NCBI GenBank assembly: GCA_016182085.1
Contig: JACOYB010000004.1
Coordinates: forward strand, 147,923 to 211,922
Direction of reading: 5' to 3'
DNA: 64,000 nucleotides
Source of the DNA: Candidatus Magasanikiibacteriota bacterium
Lineage (GTDB): Bacteria > Patescibacteriota > Patescibacteriia > Magasanikbacterales > GWA2-37-8
Shown here: piece after piece, positions 5,339-57,070 of the stretch
Layout of the letters: each line of letters begins with the position of its first letter
Position numbering within the stretch: position 1 is the stretch's first letter
Position numbers and translations under genes: made by a program
The notes under the pieces: model-generated
Database searches by the model: none
What the model saw: only the letters and a program-made list of their open reading frames with translations
Told to the model about the DNA's origin: nothing

Positions 5339-6112
5339 ATGGCTGAAGTAATCGCAGTAGTTAACCAAAAAGGCGGGGTAGGCAAAACCACTACGGCCGT
5401 CAATTTAGCCGCAGCTCTGGCTGAAAGCGGCAAATTTGTATTGCTTGTTGATTTGGATCCGCAGGGAAATGCCACCTCCGGATTAGGCATAAAATATCAA
5501 GAATTGGAACAAGGATTGTATCACAGTCTTGCCGGCCAAACTCGTTTGCACGACGTGGTACACAATACTGCTCATGCGGGGTTGCGGGTAGCTCCGGCTA
5601 CCCCAGATTTAGCAGGTGCAAATGTGGAGCTGGTAAATGTAGAAGGCCGTGAAAAAAAATTAGATGAAATTTTATCTGAAGTGTCTCATGCCTACGATTA
5701 TATTATCATTGATTGCCCGCCATCTCTGGGAATTTTAACCCTCAATGGCCTTATCGCTGCCGATCATATTTTGATTCCGGTGCAGGCTGAATACTATGCC
5801 TTGGAAGGATTGGGACAATTGCTTAAAACTATAGAACTTATACGAAGCAACTTAAAACCGGAGTTAAAAATTTTGGGCGCTGTGCTTACCATGTATGATT
5901 CTCGCAACAGCTTATCCGAAGAAGTAATGAATGATCTTTATAAATTTTTCCCAGATAATATTTTTCGTTCGGTTATTCCGCGCACCGTGCGGCTGGCTGA
6001 AGCGCCAAGTTTTGGCCAAAGTATTTTCCATTATGACCCAAGCGGTAAGGCTGCCAAAGCATACGAAAGGTTGGGCAAAGAATTTTTAGAAAGGTTTGAA
6101 AAAGAAGAATAA
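5339..6112 (+). CDS. parA: Chromosome partitioning ATPase ParA/Soj
   Basis: Deviant Walker A NQKGGVGKTTTAVNLAAALA. ParA-family length. TATAAT at 5311-5316 upstream. The ORF track extends to a TTG at 5321. Confidence 0.9.
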   Translation: MAEVIAVVNQKGGVGKTTTAVNLAAALAESGKFVLLVDLDPQGNATSGLGIKYQELEQGLYHSLAGQTRLHDVVHNTAHAGLRVAPATPDLAGANVELVNVEGREKKLDEILSEVSHAYDYIIIDCPPSLGILTLNGLIAADHILIPVQAEYYALEGLGQLLKTIELIRSNLKPELKILGAVLTMYDSRNSLSEEVMNDLYKFFPDNIFRSVIPRTVRLAEAPSFGQSIFHYDPSGKAAKAYERLGKEFLERFEKEE

Positions 6113-6206
6113 TTTTTAATAGTGTCATCCTGAACTTGTTTCAGGATCTGTATATTTAATAACTAAAGAGATGCTGAAAACTTGTTCAGCATGACAGATA
6201 AAATAT

Positions 6207-7049
6207 ATGGCCTTAGGCAAAGGACTGGGCGCCCTAATCTCCGGCGCTCCAAAACAAAAATCAGAATCACATTCCGGCGCGGATGGCCAGGAACGAGTTT
6301 GGCATATTCCGGTTGGCTCCATTACCCCAGGCACCAATCAGCCTCGGCAAAATTTTACAACTCCGGAACTTGATGATCTGGCAGCGTCTATAAAAGAACA
6401 TGGAATTTTGCAGCCACTACTTGTTACCGAACGCCTAGATGGCGGGTATGAACTAATTGCCGGAGAAAGACGTTGGCGAGCCGCGCAAATGATTGGACTT
6501 GCTACTGTGCCAGCGCTCATTAAGCAATTACCAGACAGGCAAAAATTAGAAGTAGCACTCATTGAAAATATTCAGAGAGAAAATTTAACGCCGATTGAAG
6601 AAGCGTTTGCTTATCAAAGACTCATGGATGAGTTTGCCTTAACTCAACAAGAAGTGGCGGAAAAAGTAGGTAAAAGCAGACCGGCGGTGGCCAACACTGT
6701 TAGGCTGCTCAGTTTACCGGAAGAAGTAAAAACCGCGTTAACCGACAAACGCATCAATATGAGTCAGGCTCGCGCCCTCTTGTCTCTGGAAGACAAAGCC
6801 AAGCAACTGGATATGCTTTCATCCATGCTTGGTCAGCGCATTACGGTACGAGAATTGGAGCGGTCAGTTAGCAAGCAAAATACCAAAAAAAGTCATCGCG
6901 ACCCCAATGTAACATATTTAGAAGACCAGTTGCGCGCTGCTCTTGGTACCAAAGTAACCATAACTAAAAAAGGCGAGCGAGGAACGATTGTTATAGATTT
7001 CTACTCGCAAGAAGAATTAACTCGTTTACTTAAAAAACTTACCGGTTAG
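6207..7049 (+). CDS. parB: Chromosome partitioning protein ParB/Spo0J
   Basis: ParB N-terminal box GERRWRAAQMIGLATVPALI. HTH region. Located directly downstream of parA. Confidence 0.9.
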   Translation: MALGKGLGALISGAPKQKSESHSGADGQERVWHIPVGSITPGTNQPRQNFTTPELDDLAASIKEHGILQPLLVTERLDGGYELIAGERRWRAAQMIGLATVPALIKQLPDRQKLEVALIENIQRENLTPIEEAFAYQRLMDEFALTQQEVAEKVGKSRPAVANTVRLLSLPEEVKTALTDKRINMSQARALLSLEDKAKQLDMLSSMLGQRITVRELERSVSKQNTKKSHRDPNVTYLEDQLRAALGTKVTITKKGERGTIVIDFYSQEELTRLLKKLTG

Positions 7050-8568: not shown

Positions 8569-8612
8569 ATTAAGTGAATTTTATCTTATTTAGGTGATTA
8601 AATCAATCTGAC

Positions 8613-8690
8613 TGTCATTCCCGCCACAGCGGGAATCCAGGTGATTCGTTCGATCGGATACTAGATTCCCGCTGTGGCGGGAATGACAAC
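8613..8690. repeat. Cargo-less MITE-like palindromic element: two inverted copies of the GTCATTCCCGCCACAGCGGGAATCCAG hairpin repeat separated by a 20-bp spacer
   Basis: Copy 1 at 8613-8640 and inverted copy at 8661-8690. Each copy is itself a hairpin (ATTCCCGC-N4-GCGGGAAT). Same family as the terminal inverted repeats of the GIY-YIG element at 56693-57062. Sits in the relA promoter region. Confidence 0.8.
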
Positions 8691-23528: not shown

Positions 23529-23608
23529 ATATTGACAAAATGTAATTAATCAGTCATTATACCCCTATATGAACCGAGAAATCGGCGATTTTGCGTATTT
23601 ACGTTAAT

Positions 23609-23783
23609 TGTCATTCTGAGTGGAACGAAGAATCCCTGTATATCATTCCCGCCAAAGCGGGAATCCAGACAATCGGATACTGGATTCCCAATTCGTTGGG
23701 AATGACAGGCGAAGATCCCTCCCGCCCGAACGTACACGTTCGGTACGGGCGGGCGTCGGCTAAAGCCTCGCTTGGGATGACAA
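23609..23783. repeat. Cluster of hairpin repeats of the GTCATTCCC...GGGAATCCAG family plus a GC-rich palindrome
   Basis: Copies at 23609-23636 (diverged), 23641-23668 and inverted 23681-23708 (spacer ACAATCGGATAC). Palindrome CCCGCCCGAACGTAC/ACGTTCGG..GGGCGGG at 23721-23753. Partial copy TTGGGATGACAA at 23772-23783. Confidence 0.8.
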
Positions 23784-23844
23784 TGTAAAAGCATATGCCA
23801 CTATTTCCCCTAAGAGGGGTCTGCCCTCGGGGCTGAAAATAAGT

Positions 23845-25872
23845 ATGCCACTATTCCAACTCCACTCAAAATTTAAACCAGCTGGAGATCAGCCCGAAGC
23901 TATTAAACAATTAATGGCTAGTTTGGATAAAGGAAATCGTTATCAAACTTTGCTCGGGGTAACCGGTTCGGGTAAGACTTTTACTGTCGCCAATCTTATT
24001 ACGCAATTTGATCAGCCGGTCTTGGTAATGGCGCCCAACAAAGCCTTGGCCGCGCAGCTGTACCGTGAATACAAAAATTTCTTTCCCGAAAATTCGGTGA
24101 ATTATTTTGTTTCTTATTACGATTATTATCAGCCAGAGGCATATATGCCAACCAGCGATACCTATATAGAAAAAGAATCAATGATAAATGAAGAGATAGA
24201 CAGGTTGCGCCACCAGGCCACCAGCGCGCTCGTGTCTCGCAAAGATGTAATTGTGGTTGCCTCTGTATCCTGTATATATAACTTGGGTGTGCCAAATAAT
24301 TATTTTGAATCAGCCGTGCATTTGGAAATAGGGCAGCCGATGGTGCGAGCCGATCTTATGCGACAGCTGATAAAAATTCAATTTGCGCGCACGCCCGGAG
24401 CTTTAGAGAGAGGTAAGTTTCGTGTGCGGGGTGATGTGTTTGAAATAGCGCCAGCGGCCGATAAATTTTTGTATAGAATAGAAATTAAAGACCAAAGAGT
24501 GGCCGAGATTTCTGTAATAGATGCTCTAACAAAAGTTGTAAAAGAAAATCTAAAAGAAGCGGTAATATTTCCGGTAAAACATTTTGTGTCTTCAGAGCCG
24601 CAAATGAAGGAAGCGCTCAAAGAAATAAAAGCCGAACTAAAAGACCGCTTGGCATATTTTAAGAAAAAAGAATTGTATTTGGAAGCAGAACGGCTAGAGC
24701 GTCGTACTCGATATGATTTGGAAATGTTAAAAACTTTGGGTTTTTGTCATGGAATAGAAAATTATTCTCGGCATTTGGCCGGCAAGCTGGCCGGAGAAGC
24801 GCCGGACACTCTATTGGCATATTTTCCGTGGAAAGACGGCAAACCGGATTTTTTAACCATTATGGACGAATCACATATTGGCTTGCCCCAAGTGCGAGGT
24901 ATGTATGCCGGAGACAGAAGCCGTAAAGAAGTGCTGGCTCAGTATGGCTGGAGATTGCCTTCGGCTTTGGATAACCGCCCGCTTAAATTTGATGAATTTG
25001 AAAAAAGAGTCGGGCAAGTGGTATTTACTTCGGCTACTCCGGGGGATTTTGAAATGACCAAATCCAGCACTATTGCCGAACAAGTTATTCGCCCAACAGG
25101 ACTAATTGATCCGCCAATAGAAGTCCGCCGCGCCTCGCCGACAATAAACCCCACCCCTTTCCCCTCCCCTTATAGGGGAGGGAACGACACCAATAGTGTT
25201 GTTTCCCCCGCTCCGGTTCTCTCCCCTACAAGGGGAGAGATAAAGAGAGGGGTTTACAATGGCCAAGTAAATGATGTAATGCAAGAAATTGAAGGAATAG
25301 TTAAAAGAGGCGAACGAGCGATTATAAACGTGCTCACCAAAAAAATGGCCGAGGAATTATCGGAGTTTTTGCTTCAAAGAAAATTCGCGGTAAATTACCT
25401 GCATTCTGATGTAAAAACTTTGCAGCGCACGGAAATTTTGAATGATTTTCGTCTCGGAAAGTTTAGTGTGCTAATTGGCGTAAACTTATTGCGTGAAGGT
25501 TTGGATTTACCGGAAGTAACTTTGGTAGCGATTATGGATGCGGACCGAGAAGGGTTTTTGCGCAGCGAAGAGTCGCTTATGCAGACTATGGGCCGCGCCG
25601 CTAGAAATGTGAGTGGTAAAGTTATTTTGTATGCGGATACGCTTACTAAATCAATAAAAAATGCGATGAAGGAAGTGGAAAGACGCCGTAAGTTGCAATT
25701 GGAATATAATGAGAAACACGGTATTACGCCACAAACAACTCATAAAGCGATAGAACAGTTTTTGGATATTCCGGATGCGCCTGATCCCGCTAATTCTAGA
25801 TCAGGTAAAATTAGTACGGAGCCAGATCGTAGAGGTAAAAGATCAATTAAAAAGCAAACGGAGAAAAAGTAG
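23845..25872 (+). CDS. uvrB: Excinuclease ABC subunit B (UvrB) carrying an in-frame insertion of about 40 aa derived from palindromic repeat DNA
   Basis: MPLFQLHSKFKPAGDQPEAI start. Helicase motifs GVTGSGKT and DESH. UvrB C-terminal region. The segment ...VRRASPTINPTPFPSPYRGGNDTNSVVSPAPVLSPTRGEIKRGVYNG-QVNDVMQEI has no counterpart in canonical UvrB and is encoded by two CCCCT/AGGGG hairpins at about 25135-25262. Confidence 0.9.
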   Translation: MPLFQLHSKFKPAGDQPEAIKQLMASLDKGNRYQTLLGVTGSGKTFTVANLITQFDQPVLVMAPNKALAAQLYREYKNFFPENSVNYFVSYYDYYQPEAYMPTSDTYIEKESMINEEIDRLRHQATSALVSRKDVIVVASVSCIYNLGVPNNYFESAVHLEIGQPMVRADLMRQLIKIQFARTPGALERGKFRVRGDVFEIAPAADKFLYRIEIKDQRVAEISVIDALTKVVKENLKEAVIFPVKHFVSSEPQMKEALKEIKAELKDRLAYFKKKELYLEAERLERRTRYDLEMLKTLGFCHGIENYSRHLAGKLAGEAPDTLLAYFPWKDGKPDFLTIMDESHIGLPQVRGMYAGDRSRKEVLAQYGWRLPSALDNRPLKFDEFEKRVGQVVFTSATPGDFEMTKSSTIAEQVIRPTGLIDPPIEVRRASPTINPTPFPSPYRGGNDTNSVVSPAPVLSPTRGEIKRGVYNGQVNDVMQEIEGIVKRGERAIINVLTKKMAEELSEFLLQRKFAVNYLHSDVKTLQRTEILNDFRLGKFSVLIGVNLLREGLDLPEVTLVAIMDADREGFLRSEESLMQTMGRAARNVSGKVILYADTLTKSIKNAMKEVERRRKLQLEYNEKHGITPQTTHKAIEQFLDIPDAPDPANSRSGKISTEPDRRGKRSIKKQTEKK

Positions 25873-25937: not shown

Positions 25938-26321
25938 TCAGTTTTTACCGAAGGCTTTACGAATGTAGTCGGTGTAATCGAACTTGACTACAGCGGCATT
26001 GCATCCGGCTTTCATGAGTTCGCTATTGCTCTCATCACTGCTTGAAGCTGCAACGATCAGGCCGCGGAATCCCATGTCCCTGAAGTGATGTACAAGTGGC
26101 GTGGTGGTAAGCTCTCCATCCTTAATCACATCGTTATCGTTGCGAGGCACGCTGCCATCTACGGTGATGGCCACGATATCGGGATGCTGGGCGTAGAGAT
26201 TCTCAGCTTCGGCAATAGTACGCGCAAAGACCATTTCTATGTAATCTATCAGCATGTCTGGCCAGAGTTGCTGGCATGAAGGATTATCTTCCACGACCAG
26301 AATTTTCGGCAGATTGCCCAT
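25938..26321 (-). CDS. Stand-alone receiver (REC/CheY-like) domain protein, atypical
   Basis: 127 aa. KILVVEDN acidic pocket, putative phospho-acceptor in AITVDGSV, LIVAASS and a later Lys. No output domain. Locus GC about 50%, above the host background. Confidence 0.55.
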   Translation of the reverse strand: MGNLPKILVVEDNPSCQQLWPDMLIDYIEMVFARTIAEAENLYAQHPDIVAITVDGSVPRNDNDVIKDGELTTTPLVHHFRDMGFRGLIVAASSSDESNSELMKAGCNAAVVKFDYTDYIRKAFGKN

Positions 26322-26523: not shown

Positions 26524-26886
26524 TCAGATACCGAGAATCTCTCGAATTTTATCGACCACTTGGTCCTTGCGAGCTTCGTGTTCGCATCCACTAATCACTC
26601 GCAGATCGAAGTTGGAATCAATACTGTTCGAACCAGCAATCATGCGAGCCCCATATCCGGCCTCTCCGAGCCGCTTGGCCAGCAAAACGGTATCTCCACT
26701 TTCGTGAAGAGATCCGTCCACGACGATCACATCGAAATCAGGGACAGTGTGGGCGAGAATCTGGTTGACGACCGTGGTCGCCCCAGCTAGCGTGGTAACT
26801 GGCACAATCTCGACCGTAGCGGGTAGATCCTGACGATACTTGGTTTGCCACTCAGTGAGATCCTCGATCACCAGTACTCTGGGCAT
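26524..26886 (-). CDS. Stand-alone receiver (REC-like) domain protein, paralog of 25938-26321
   Basis: 120 aa. RVLVIEDL, DVIVVDGSL, MIAGSNS. Aligns with the neighbouring REC ORF. Own terminator hairpin CGCTGTCTgggtAGACAGCG at 26437-26458. GC about 52%. Confidence 0.55.
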   Translation of the reverse strand: MPRVLVIEDLTEWQTKYRQDLPATVEIVPVTTLAGATTVVNQILAHTVPDFDVIVVDGSLHESGDTVLLAKRLGEAGYGARMIAGSNSIDSNFDLRVISGCEHEARKDQVVDKIREILGI

Positions 26887-56692: not shown

Positions 56693-57062
56693 GTTGTCAT
56701 TCCCGTCGCAGCGGGAATCCAGTCGATATGAATCAACGCAAAAATTATTATGTATATATTTTGGCAAGTAAAAGAAATGGCACTTTATATATTGGAGTAA
56801 CAAATAGTTTGATCAGACGAATTTATGAACACAAGCAAAATTTAATTGCTGGGTTCACAAAAAAATACGGAGTTCATAATCTAGTTTATTATGAAACTTA
56901 CGATAGTATAGACACTGCGATTGCCAGAGAAAAAGAAATTAAAAAATGGAGAAGAAAACCTAAAATTGACCTAATAGAAAAAGATAATTTAAATTGGCGT
57001 GATTTGTATAAGGAATTAAATCCAGCTTAGCGACTGGATTCCCGCTGCGGCGGGAATGACAA
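56693..57062 (+). mobile_element. Compact GIY-YIG nuclease element bounded by about 30-bp terminal inverted repeats of the GTCATTCCC...GGGAATCCAG hairpin family, inserted between pheS and pheT
   Basis: Left IR GTTGTCATTCCCGTCGCAGCGGGAATCCAGTCG (56693-56725) and right IR CGACTGGATTCCCGCTGCGGCGGGAATGACAA (57031-57062) are reverse complements with 1-2 mismatches. The ORF occupies the whole interior. Confidence 0.8.
56728..57030 (+). CDS. GIY-YIG domain nuclease (small YhbQ/COG2827-like)
   Basis: YYVYILASKRNGTLYIGVTNSLIRRIYEH (GIY...YIG), conserved R, E in EKEIKKW. 100 aa. Confidence 0.85.
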   Translation: MNQRKNYYVYILASKRNGTLYIGVTNSLIRRIYEHKQNLIAGFTKKYGVHNLVYYETYDSIDTAIAREKEIKKWRRKPKIDLIEKDNLNWRDLYKELNPA

Positions 57063-57070
57063 AACATTAT

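What the first reader, a model, noticed from the sequence alone, without database searches (positions are those of the whole stretch)
25135..25262. In-frame insertion of palindromic repeat DNA inside uvrB (RPE-like behaviour)
- **Coding effect.** UvrB here reads ...PIEVRRAS-PTINPTPFPSPYRGGNDTNSVVSPAPVLSPTRGEIKRGVYNG-QVNDVMQEIEGIV.... The roughly 40 underlying residues have no counterpart in canonical UvrB (VRPTKGQIDDLLSEI...).
- **DNA basis.** The segment is encoded by two perfect hairpins, CCCTCCCCttataGGGGAGGG (about 25162-25183) and TCTCTCCCCTacaAGGGGAGAGA (25218-25240).
- **Reading frame.** The frame is preserved, so the protein probably tolerates an extra surface loop before helicase domain 3.
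- **Precedent.** Rickettsia palindromic elements behave this way, but the behaviour is rarely seen elsewhere.
Basis: partly seen in the sequence, partly recalled or inferred. Interest (0 to 1): 0.7.

Follow-up and report, generated by a model that had tools for sequence, protein, structure and literature searches.

The report
Hairpin repeat translated inside uvrB
A 112-base double-hairpin repeat sits in frame inside the DNA-repair gene uvrB of a Patescibacteria genome and adds a floppy 42-residue loop; the repeat belongs to a family found in many bacterial phyla that consistently flanks small DUF559 endonuclease genes.

Summary
uvrB (23845-25872, +) carries a non-ancestral segment (25132-25257, residues 430-471). 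Its core (25145-25256) is one composite palindrome made of two inverted hairpin units, A and B.

- **Reality.** A second assembler reproduces the region exactly, and four other uvrB alleles carry homologous segments at the same site.
- **Distribution in UvrB.** 112 of the 120 closest homologs have the plain linker. Alleles with 1, 2 or 3 units lie scattered among insert-free relatives.
- **Protein effect.** AlphaFold places residues 431-471 as a disordered loop between the last strand before helicase domain 3 and that domain's first helix. All residues invariant across the 60-sequence UvrB alignment are kept.
- **Repeat family.** The same units are dispersed in low-GC contigs, about 44 of 56 from groundwater metagenomes. 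About three quarters of those copies are intergenic. Others are read through in reverse transcriptase, O-antigen ligase and ATP synthase gamma, and, for the multi-phylum form, in TsaD, UvrC, DapF and an RND pump.
- **New lead.** In 12 of 12 loci examined, DUF559 (Vsr-fold) endonuclease genes are bracketed by these units. No RAYT or other transposase was found.

Verdict: the RPE-like reading is supported. The element is a REPIN/BIME-like repeat with a candidate new nuclease partner; mobilisation is not shown.

The parts
23845..25872 (+). uvrB ORF (675 aa), the host gene, intact
   Evidence: ORF. Pfam ResIII/DEAD, UvrB_inter, Helicase_C and UvrB domains. E = 2e-214 to solved UvrB. All invariant columns of a 60-sequence alignment are retained.
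25132..25257 (+). Non-ancestral coding segment (residues 430-471, ASPTINPTPFPSPYRGGNDTNSVVSPAPVLSPTRGEIKRGVY), translated as a disordered loop
   Evidence: Gap in the alignment to solved UvrB. Absent from 112 of the 120 closest homologs. pLDDT below 50 for residues 431-471, with no secondary structure.
25132..25144 (+). Left junction (GCCTCGCCGACAA) outside the palindrome; its first part is shared with the different segment in the closest relative, L001
   Evidence: The codon-level comparison shows CGCCGCGCCTCGCC shared by the query and L001 only. The L001 segment has no significant fold, z = -0.18.
25145..25256 (.). Composite palindromic element: two inverted units plus a spacer, REPIN/BIME-like
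   Evidence: Arms 25145-25185 and 25216-25256, 41 nt, 80% complementary, 30 nt apart. The predicted fold is an 8-bp terminal stem closing three hairpins, z about -6.3.
25148..25182 (.). Unit A: pyrimidine flank ACCCCACCCC (25148-25157), TTT, then hairpin CCCTCCCCT-TAT-AGGGGAGGG (25162-25182). The minus strand reads GGGGAGGGGAAAGGGGTGGGG, a four-tract G-quadruplex-type motif.
   Evidence: The same unit is present in L003, L146 and L158 uvrB and as 'A' units in dispersed copies.
25183..25203 (.). Spacer hairpin AACGACAC-CAATA-GTGTTGTT within the 30-nt spacer; the spacer sequence is not conserved between alleles
   Evidence: Fold. The spacers of L146 and L158 are unrelated in sequence but similar in length.
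25218..25253 (.). Unit B: hairpin TCTCTCCCCT-ACA-AGGGGAGAGA (25218-25240), TAA, then purine flank AGAGAGGGGT (25244-25253), which is the mirror image of the purine arm
   Evidence: The B unit is shared with L003, L004, L146, L158 and with 52 dispersed copies. The one-sided mirror flank is seen in 97 of 124 multi-phylum copies, against 12% for shuffled flanks.

Best explanation
The segment is a copy of a dispersed, non-coding hairpin repeat that has become part of the uvrB reading frame.

**Anatomy (shown).** Each unit is a 9-10 bp perfect hairpin with a 3-nt loop, followed on one side by a roughly 10-nt flank that mirrors the purine arm. Two such units in inverted orientation, separated by a 30-nt spacer, form a 112-nt composite palindrome. 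That is the architecture of REPINs and BIMEs.

**Position and effect (shown).** It lies in the codons for the short linker between the last strand before helicase domain 3 and that domain's first helix. It replaces about 7 ancestral codons and adds a net 35. It is translated as a Pro/Gly/Ser/Arg-rich disordered loop, and the rest of UvrB is unchanged.

**Why the frame is open (inferred).** Only versions that keep the uvrB frame open survive. The element itself is not especially stop-free, so the intact frame reflects selection on the gene.

**Dynamics (shown).** The linker is tolerant of insertions and deletions, and unit number at this site changes fast: 1 versus 3 units in proteins 96% identical.

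**Mobility (inferred, about 0.35-0.4).** The family is the non-autonomous partner of DUF559 (Vsr-fold PD-(D/E)XK) endonuclease genes, which are themselves bracketed by the same units. The nuclease would nick or cut at the structured repeats or at target sites, and repair synthesis or recombination would copy the units. Spread of the uvrB allele between related lineages by homologous recombination is equally possible.
For: **Repeat nature**
- An identical hairpin, with the same loop, occurs in intergenic DNA in L004, whose uvrB carries one unit.
At least 10 phyla are represented.
- The uvrB-type subfamily gave 56 contigs and 52 distinct copies at GC 0.37-0.46. About three quarters are outside long open frames.

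**In-frame behaviour elsewhere**
- RVT_1, Wzy_C, ATP synthase gamma, TsaD, UvrC, DAP epimerase and an AcrB-type pump all carry copies in frame.
- A PGA_cap gene in a Magasanikbacteria MAG does too.

**Patchy distribution in UvrB**
- The query groups with insert-free P0003 and P0004 (99/100 bootstraps). P0008 and P0018 are sisters (100/100) and are never grouped with the query (0/100).
- L146 and L158 are closest to still other insert-free proteins.

**Constraint acts on DNA, not on the peptide**
- Stems are conserved, with paired changes (CCCTCCCCT/AGGGGAGGG versus CTCTCCCCT/AGGGGAGAG). Loops and spacers vary freely.

**Disordered loop:**. **Reality of the sequence:**

**DUF559 link**
- The gene is bracketed by units in 8 loci found through the repeat and in 4 loci found through the gene, including two cultured isolates.
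- 10 of 19 C4/G4-armed hairpins lie in the 3.75% of sequence around DUF559, p = 3.7e-10.
- CPR-type DUF559 genes end inside a hairpin. Their read-through tails are LSP(F/V)RGEIK(R/G)GV, almost the peptide encoded in uvrB.
- Vsr, DUF559 and the homing endonuclease I-Bth0305I share one PD-(D/E)XK clade (PMC3424549; PMC3239194).
Against: - There is no second copy of the element in the 64-kb window and no DUF559 gene there. Multi-copy status in this particular genome is therefore not shown.
- There is no consistent target-site duplication. The flanking ACAAT/ACAAT seen in the query is not seen in L003.
- The event is not a clean insertion, because the ancestral PVFDKKT is missing.
- All hairpin-bearing alleles share the same junctions although they lie in different clades. 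That fits recombinational spread of one allele better than repeated transposition. However, a sliding-window comparison showed no clear recombination tract.
- In uvrB the flanks face outward (flank-hairpin ... hairpin-flank). Around DUF559 they face inward. So the uvrB doublet is not simply a gene-less copy of the DUF559 element.
- No cleavage, excision or insertion event has been observed. The DUF559 link is an association only.
Confidence: 0.8

Rival explanations
1. One insertion allele arose once and then moved between related Magasanikbacteria lineages by homologous recombination across the highly conserved uvrB flanks. On this view the query did not receive the element by transposition. 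This rival concerns how the query acquired the segment, not what the segment is.
For: - All five hairpin-bearing alleles share the same right junction (...AGAGGGGT(T/A)TA(C/T) followed by (N/G/K)GQV). All five lack FDKKT, and four of the five share the same left junction VRPV|NPTP.
- They sit in at least three separate places on the UvrB tree.
- Close to the site the query's usual excess similarity to its own clade disappears: 0.73-0.85 versus 0.75-0.77 in residues 401-425.
Against: - The 75-nt windows are too noisy to define a tract.
- The spacers between units are unrelated in sequence among alleles.
- The query's left junction differs (RRASPTI) and is shared with its own closest relative instead.
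- TsaD shows the same 'one site, variable units' pattern in two Verrucomicrobia, which suggests site preference.
Confidence: 0.4
2. The segment has been co-opted for a function. Either the nucleic-acid structure works within uvrB (an mRNA hairpin that pauses ribosomes at a domain boundary, affects mRNA stability, or forms non-B DNA sensed by repair), or the extra loop is a new interaction surface on UvrB.
For: - The predicted structure is very stable, RNA -63.5 kcal/mol with z = -6.4.
- The position is exactly at a domain boundary.
- The segment persists in several lineages.
- The purine arm plus mirror flank, and the four G-tracts of unit A, could form triplex or quadruplex structures (sequence).
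Against: - 112 of the 120 closest UvrB proteins do without it.
- Unit number varies between 1, 2 and 3, and spacer sequences vary freely.
- Identical units lie in intergenic DNA and in unrelated proteins, so their conservation does not come from UvrB function.
- The loop is predicted to be disordered.
Confidence: 0.12
3. The segment is lineage-specific linker sequence that expanded in place by slippage or duplication, and its hairpins are incidental. It is not derived from a dispersed repeat.
For: - The linker is length-variable in other homologs: P0010 has +4 residues, P0056 +8, and P0001 +23 without hairpins.
- There is no other copy in the window.
Against: - The same 37-nt unit (CTCTCCCCTTTTAGGGGAGAGACAGAGAGAGGGGTAT) is found in L004 uvrB and in an unrelated locus, L023.
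- 52 dispersed copies of the B unit exist, and copies occur in other genes.
- The hairpin count and fold stability are far beyond chance.
Confidence: 0.04
4. The segment is an assembly or chimera artefact, or it is removed before the mature protein is made (intron, intein or translational bypass).
For: Palindromes can cause mis-assembly. Hairpin-rich insertions in yeast mitochondrial genes are bypassed during translation (own knowledge).
Against: - An independent assembler gives 100% identity over 2,899 nt.
- Four further metagenomes carry homologous segments.
- All five alleles, of different lengths, keep the frame and have no stop codon, which would not be required if the segment were skipped.
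- At 42 residues it is far too short for an intein, and no Rfam intron or ribozyme matches.
Confidence: 0.02

Closest known systems
Rickettsia palindromic elements (RPEs; Ogata et al. 2000, as summarised in PMC10969869)
   Same: A palindromic repeat of about 100-150 bp inserted in frame into unrelated housekeeping genes. It is translated as an extra peptide compatible with the host fold. Many copies also lie between genes. No dedicated transposase is known.
   Different: A different phylum (Patescibacteria and many others). The unit is much smaller (about 35-40 nt) and modular, with 1-3 units at one site. Sequence relatedness to RPE families was not tested. A candidate nuclease partner (DUF559) is seen here.
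REPINs/BIMEs and their RAYT transposases (PMC3116915, PMC3337134)
   Same: Short GC-rich imperfect palindromes. The replicative unit is an inverted doublet with a less conserved spacer that folds into a long hairpin. Clusters have alternating orientation. A single-copy nuclease-type gene is flanked by its own repeats, and the repeat sequence co-varies with lineage.
   Different: REPs are by definition extragenic, whereas this copy and a minority of others are intragenic. There is no GTAG-type 5' tetranucleotide. No Y1 (HUH) RAYT was found in the window or on 56 repeat-bearing contigs. The flanked gene is a Vsr-fold PD-(D/E)XK protein (DUF559). The distribution spans many phyla rather than being mainly Proteobacteria.
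Intragenic MITEs (ERIC, BOX, QMITE1, Anabaena MITEs; review PMC10969869)
   Same: Small non-autonomous elements with terminal inverted repeats that can create in-frame fusions with host ORFs.
   Different: There is no consistent target-site duplication and no related IS with a DDE transposase. The termini are themselves complete hairpins with a mirror-repeat flank.
Vsr-fold homing endonucleases (I-Bth0305I family; PMC3239194, PMC2677866)
   Same: The nuclease fold is in the same PD-(D/E)XK clade as DUF559 (PMC3424549). They are selfish genes that target conserved sites in housekeeping genes, often DNA-metabolism genes.
   Different: Those enzymes reside in group I introns or inteins that splice out. 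Here the gene is free-standing between hairpin units, and the inserted DNA is translated rather than spliced.
Double-hairpin elements and GC clusters of fungal mitochondria (own knowledge: Allomyces DHEs; yeast 'byp' elements)
   Same: Tiny mobile double-hairpin elements that land inside protein and rRNA genes, sometimes at the same site in different lineages.
   Different: They are organellar, unrelated in sequence, and some are bypassed during translation. No bracketed nuclease gene of this kind is known for them.

Membership tests
Rickettsia palindromic elements (RPE) | Palindromic repeat of about 100-150 bp able to fold into a long hairpin | tested here: met
   The element is a 112-nt composite palindrome with 41-nt arms that are 80% complementary. 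Fold z = -6.25 as DNA and -6.44 as RNA.
Rickettsia palindromic elements (RPE) | Many copies per genome, a sizeable share inside ORFs and in frame | tested here: inconclusive
   Dispersed and in-frame copies are shown in related metagenome contigs and other genomes. Only one copy lies in the 64 kb available for this genome.
Rickettsia palindromic elements (RPE) | Sequence homology to the RPE-1 to RPE-10 consensus sequences | not tested
One Rickettsiales MAG (L047) does carry the hairpin core.
Rickettsia palindromic elements (RPE) | The inserted peptide lies on the protein surface and leaves the fold intact | tested here: met
   Residues 431-471 have pLDDT around 30 and sit between strand 425-429 and helix 474-487. 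The flanking domains are modelled normally. Invariant UvrB residues are kept.
REP / REPIN-RAYT | Short GC-rich imperfect palindromes organised as inverted doublets with a less conserved spacer that fold as one hairpin | tested here: met
   Spacers differ between alleles while the units are conserved. Definition taken from PMC3116915.
REP / REPIN-RAYT | Extragenic location | tested here: not met
   This copy lies inside uvrB. About a quarter of the dispersed copies are inside or at the edge of open frames.
REP / REPIN-RAYT | An associated Y1 (HUH) RAYT gene flanked by the repeats | tested here: not met
   No Y1_Tnp hit among 20 small ORFs of the window. It is not among the recurrent families in 130 ORFs from 56 repeat-bearing contigs. 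The repeat-flanked gene is DUF559 instead. Whole genomes were not available.
MITE | Terminal inverted repeats | tested here: met
   TAAACCCC...GGGGTTTA is perfect over 8 bp, within 41-nt arms.
MITE | Target-site duplication of fixed length | tested here: inconclusive
   ACAAT is present on both sides in the query (25141-25145 and 25256-25260), but there is no equivalent in L003 or L004. Ancestral codons are deleted at the site.
MITE | A parent autonomous element with the same termini that encodes the mobilising enzyme | tested here: inconclusive
   DUF559 genes are bracketed by the same units in 12 of 12 loci, p = 3.7e-10. However, the flank orientation differs from the uvrB doublet and no activity has been shown.
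Intein / intron / bypass element | The element is removed from the RNA or protein, so there is no need to keep frame or avoid stop codons | tested here: not met
   Five alleles of different length all keep the frame and lack stops. There is no Rfam intron or ribozyme match. 42 residues is too short for an intein.

The most novel reading that the evidence does not exclude
The hairpin-plus-mirror-flank units are the non-autonomous partners of DUF559 (Vsr-fold) endonuclease genes. On this reading they form a REP/RAYT-like or homing-like selfish system built on a PD-(D/E)XK nuclease. It would be present from Patescibacteria to Pseudomonas-like isolates, and its short derivatives repeatedly enter core genes in frame (uvrB, uvrC, tsaD, atpG, dapF). 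The window itself holds a parallel case: a GIY-YIG gene bracketed by a second hairpin family. That hints at a general class of 'hairpin-bracketed mini-nuclease' elements. It would also give DUF559, a large family of unknown function, its first testable role.
Probability: 0.4. Interest if true: 0.8.

Novelty: new variant of a known kind. Interest (0 to 1): 0.6.

Why it matters
- **Genome evolution in small genomes.** Small selfish repeats remodel essential proteins even in the tiny, streamlined genomes of Patescibacteria. The result also identifies a linker in UvrB that tolerates 11 to 50 extra residues.
- **Annotation.** Peptides such as LSPxRGE, PSPLxGER and GEGxGVRG inside otherwise conserved proteins, or at the ends of small ORFs, are translated repeat DNA. 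They should not be read as domains.
- **Wider point.** The same repeat architecture occurs in many phyla and consistently brackets DUF559 endonuclease genes. If that link is functional, it defines a new repeat-nuclease partnership analogous to REP-RAYT. It would be directly testable in cultured Luteimonas and Aquipseudomonas strains.

Tried and rejected
- **Peptide profile search.** A profile of the translated units searched against 5.8 billion proteins returned nothing, because only 17 match columns remained. A first attempt failed on query length.
- **Exhaustive peptide search.** phmmer with the 42-residue segment against 1.84 billion representatives returned one unrelated tandem-repeat protein, P0121.
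- **Literature search by repeat sequence.** Only eukaryotic and viral G-rich oligonucleotides came up. A search on CPR plus palindromic insertions found nothing relevant.
- **Rfam.** The only hit above gathering threshold in the window is a tRNA. The permissive scan gave only sub-threshold microRNA-hairpin look-alikes on the element.
- **RAYT or other transposase.** None among 20 small ORFs of the window. None recurrent on the repeat-bearing contigs.
- **Phage carriage.** Only 10 viral contigs hold the hairpin core. This was not pursued.
- **Recombination tract around the site.** No clear signal.
- **'ORF-neutral' element.** Rejected. Only 2 of 6 frames of the 112-nt element are open, and B units average 3.4 open frames against 2.9 for random 38-mers.
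- **L001 segment as a degraded copy of the same element.** Not supported. It has no significant fold (z = -0.18) and shares only 14 nt.
- **Mirror repeat versus direct repeat of the flank.** The two are only weakly separable in the multi-phylum set (mean score 8.13 versus 7.6). The mirror is unambiguous only in the uvrB-type B units.
- **First tree attempt.** Timed out and was redone.
Full report
**1. What is in the sequence**

Window 23845-25872 (+) is a 675-residue ORF with the full UvrB domain set: ResIII/DEAD, UvrB_inter, Helicase_C and UvrB. HMMER aligns it to solved UvrB structures in two blocks, query 4-429 and 472-642. These correspond to residues 5-426 and 428-598 of 2fdc_A, so residues 430-471 have no counterpart.

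The DNA under that gap contains two perfect hairpins:
- CCCTCCCCT-TAT-AGGGGAGGG at 25162-25182
- TCTCTCCCCT-ACA-AGGGGAGAGA at 25218-25240

Such hairpins are about 20 times more frequent here than in shuffles: 4 observed against 0.19 expected.

The two hairpins are not independent. They lie in 41-nt arms (25145-25185 and 25216-25256) that are 80% complementary to each other. As single-stranded DNA or RNA the segment is predicted to form an 8-bp terminal stem (TAAACCCC/GGGGTTTA) enclosing three hairpins, with z = -6.25 and -6.44. A second assembler (Logan, run SRR12113430) gives 100% identity over 2,899 nt covering the region.

**2. Comparison with relatives**

The closest proteins are from Patescibacteria (Candidatus Magasanikbacteria). 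Of the 120 best homologs, 112 have a 20-residue linker reading ...VRPVFDKKTNRGQV....

Hairpin-type segments occur in five alleles:
- the query (and its identical fragment P0002), 2 units
- P0008 (L003), 3 units
- P0018 (L004), 1 unit
- two partial metagenomic alleles, L146 and L158, 2 units each

At DNA level these segments are homologous. They share the left end AACCCCACCCC and the right end AGGGGAGAG-AYARAG-AGAGGGGT(T/A)TAC. All five lack the ancestral FDKKT codons. Stems are conserved, with paired changes, while loops (TAT, ACA, ATA, TTT, AAT) and spacers vary.

On a UvrB tree with the linker masked, the query groups with P0001, P0003 and P0004 (99/100 bootstraps), and P0003 and P0004 are insert-free. 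P0008 and P0018 are sisters (100/100, 96% identical in the core despite 3 versus 1 units) and nest among insert-free proteins. The query never groups with them (0/100). L146 and L158 are closest to yet other insert-free proteins.

The closest relative, P0001, carries a different 23-residue segment at the same linker. It shares only CGCCGCGCCTCGCC with the query and has no significant fold.

So the linker is a hot spot for insertions and deletions, and the hairpin segment is distributed patchily. A sliding-window comparison did not reveal a clear recombination tract.

**3. It is a dispersed repeat**

- There is no second copy in the 64-kb window.
- L004 has the identical hairpin in intergenic DNA, and L005 has a related one.
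Hits come from Nostocales, Planctomycetota, Verrucomicrobiota, Chloroflexota, Myxococcota, Desulfobacterota, Bacteroidota, Proteobacteria and others, often several per MAG.
- The uvrB-type subfamily (AGGGGAGAGAYARAGAGAGGGGT) gave 56 metagenome contigs. About 44 come from 0.1-0.2 µm groundwater fractions named 'Hain' and the rest from other metagenomes. GC is 0.37-0.46 for all but three contigs, which are repetitive 0.55-0.57 GC sequences without the hairpin's pyrimidine arm. CPR-typical T4SS-pilin genes are the most recurrent neighbours.
- Of 52 distinct copies, about three quarters lie outside long open frames.

*Unit architecture.* Each unit has a pyrimidine arm, a 3-5 nt loop, a purine arm, 3-4 nt, and then a flank that mirrors the purine arm, with A kept or replaced by T. 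In 97 of 124 multi-phylum copies this flank is present at 8/9 or better on exactly one side, against 12% for shuffled flanks. Units occur as alternating-orientation arrays, like BIMEs. The uvrB segment is one A-spacer-B doublet of such an array.

**4. In-frame copies elsewhere**

The repeat is read through in real, unrelated proteins, each confirmed with Pfam:
- reverse transcriptase
- O-antigen ligase
- ATP synthase gamma
- a SucC-like ATP-grasp fragment (weak Pfam match, below the curated cut-off)
- TsaD, at the same site in two Verrucomicrobia
- UvrC
- diaminopimelate epimerase
- an AcrB-type pump

A PGA_cap gene in a Magasanikbacteria MAG carries a pair as well.

The element is not intrinsically stop-free. 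Only 2 of 6 frames of the 112-nt element are open, and B units average 3.4 open frames against 2.9 for random 38-mers. Intact frames therefore reflect selection on the host genes.

**5. Effect on UvrB**

An AlphaFold2 model built from 60 homologs (pTM 0.67) gives pLDDT around 30 and no secondary structure for residues 431-471. These lie between strand 425-429 and helix 474-487. Every column that is invariant in the 60-sequence alignment is retained.

**6. How it might move**

- No Y1/RAYT or other transposase is found among the 20 small ORFs of the window. None is recurrent among 130 ORFs on the repeat-bearing contigs.
- Instead, three of those contigs carry a DUF559 (PF04480, Vsr-fold) gene that starts about 20 nt after a B unit.
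- All nine DUF559-like hits in the 1.23 Mb held lie close to a unit, eight of them within 170 nt.
- In the eight loci that could be drawn, the gene is bracketed. A hairpin-then-flank unit lies upstream and another unit lies at or overlapping the stop; in the higher-GC loci and L143 it is the inverted flank-then-hairpin form.
- Four further loci were chosen through the gene rather than the repeat: a Magasanikbacteria MAG, a CPR MAG, and the isolates Aquipseudomonas ullengensis and Luteimonas sp. They show the same bracket with lineage-specific hairpin sequences. There, 10 of 19 C4/G4-armed hairpins fall in the 3.75% of sequence around the gene (p = 3.7e-10).
- Among 80 DUF559 homologs, the CPR-type proteins end ...SFP(F/S)*, with the stop codon formed in the hairpin loop. 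Read-through tails are LSP(F/V)RGEIK(R/G)GV, close to the uvrB peptide LSPTRGEIKRGVY. Distant homologs end in other Pro/Gly tails of the same kind.
- The only solved relative is an uncharacterised protein, 3HRL.
- A survey of PD-(D/E)XK proteins puts Vsr, DUF559 and the intron homing endonuclease I-Bth0305I in one clade (PMC3424549, PMC3239194).
- None of the 25 papers that mention DUF559 connects it with repeats.

I therefore propose, as inference, that DUF559 is the nuclease partner of this repeat family. One caveat is that around DUF559 the flanks face the gene, whereas in uvrB they face outward. No activity has been shown.

**7. Comparison with known systems**

In behaviour this matches RPEs and other intragenic MITEs (PMC10969869). 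In architecture it matches REPINs/BIMEs (PMC3116915). It fails two REP criteria: extragenic location and RAYT association. It lacks a consistent target-site duplication, and RPE sequence membership was not tested. I file it as a new variant of the known kind 'small palindromic repeats that can insert in frame', with a candidate new partner enzyme.

**8. Verdict**

The uvrB case alone is a modest novelty. The multi-phylum family, its mirror-flank unit and the DUF559 bracket raise the interest.

Noticed in passing
window 56695-57065 (GIY-YIG ORF 56728-57030); also 8610-8690, 23640-23670 and 57038: A second hairpin family, GTCATTCCCGC-N4-GCGGGAATCCAG, is present and is entirely intergenic here. 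It brackets a 100-residue GIY-YIG nuclease gene: one unit ends 5 nt before the ATG and the inverted unit follows right after the stop. It also occurs as a gene-less inverted doublet at 8610-8690. This is the same 'nuclease between hairpins plus short derivatives' layout seen for DUF559. Two other GIY-YIG homologs in held loci lacked such hairpins.
   Followed up: partly
L038, L051, L104, L108, L109, L143, L163, L179, L194, L195/L196, L197, L198: DUF559 (PF04480, Vsr-fold) endonuclease genes are bracketed by the CCCC/GGGG hairpin-plus-flank units in 12 of 12 loci, including two cultured isolates. In the CPR-type genes the stop codon lies in a hairpin loop.
   Followed up: yes
window 23600-23835 (upstream of uvrB): A 230-nt GC-rich (about 57%) intergenic cluster holds at least four different small hairpins. 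These include ATTCCCGC-CAAA-GCGGGAAT, CCGAACG-TACA-CGTTCGG and CCCCT-AAG-AGGGG, the last of which ends 26 nt before the uvrB start. A spurious 82-codon ORF on the minus strand reads through it. L005 has two copies of the ATTCCCGC hairpin in the same position.
   Followed up: partly
L001 11310-11380 (uvrB of the closest relative, P0001): A different 23-residue segment (ASPEFRRNEGGTVFAPTSPKASAGHS) sits in the same linker. It shares 14 nt with the query's left junction, contains the ancestral (P)VF codons in its middle, and has no significant secondary structure. This marks the linker as a general insertion and deletion hot spot.
   Followed up: partly
window 25148-25182 (minus strand) and unit flanks generally: The purine arm plus mirror flank (AGGGGAGAGA-taa-AGAGAGGGGT) has the strand order pyrimidine-purine-purine. 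As I recall, this order was used in designed intramolecular purine-motif triplexes (own knowledge). Unit A's minus strand, and the common form AGGGGAGAGGGnnnGGGTGAGGGGT, carry four G-tracts, which is a G-quadruplex-type motif. No structural test was possible.
   Followed up: partly
L017 around 5534 and L114 around 7446: TsaD of two Verrucomicrobia carries in-frame hairpin-repeat segments of different lengths at the same site, after ...HHEAHLYSPWI. This mirrors the 'one site, variable units' pattern seen in uvrB.
   Followed up: partly
L194 12140-12190: Two hairpins (CCCCTCCTT-CGT-AAGGAGGGG and TCTCCCCTT-ACG-AAGGGGAGA) lie in frame inside a PGA_cap gene of a Magasanikbacteria MAG.
   Followed up: no
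L146 (uvrB at about 5810-6814): This uvrB allele matches query residues 1-188 and 378-520 only. It has an internal deletion of about 190 residues, or the contig is mis-assembled, so the gene may be a pseudogene there.
   Followed up: no
L023, L038, L045, L196 (records titled 'uncultured Gammaproteobacteria'): These contigs have GC of about 0.42-0.47 where measured (L038, L195/L196). L195/L196 carry a CPR-typical T4SS-pilin gene, L038 and L195/L196 carry CPR-type DUF559 genes (80-89% identical to the Hainich ones), and all carry the uvrB-type repeat subfamily. The taxonomic label in the record titles is doubtful.
   Followed up: no
window 25938-26321 and 26524-26886 (minus strand): Two small ORFs with N-termini that look like receiver domains (MGNLPKILVVEDN..., MPRVLVIEDL...) lie between uvrB and uvrA. 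They have no Pfam hit at E <= 0.01. In relatives (L001, L005) uvrB and uvrA are adjacent or separated by other small ORFs.
   Followed up: no
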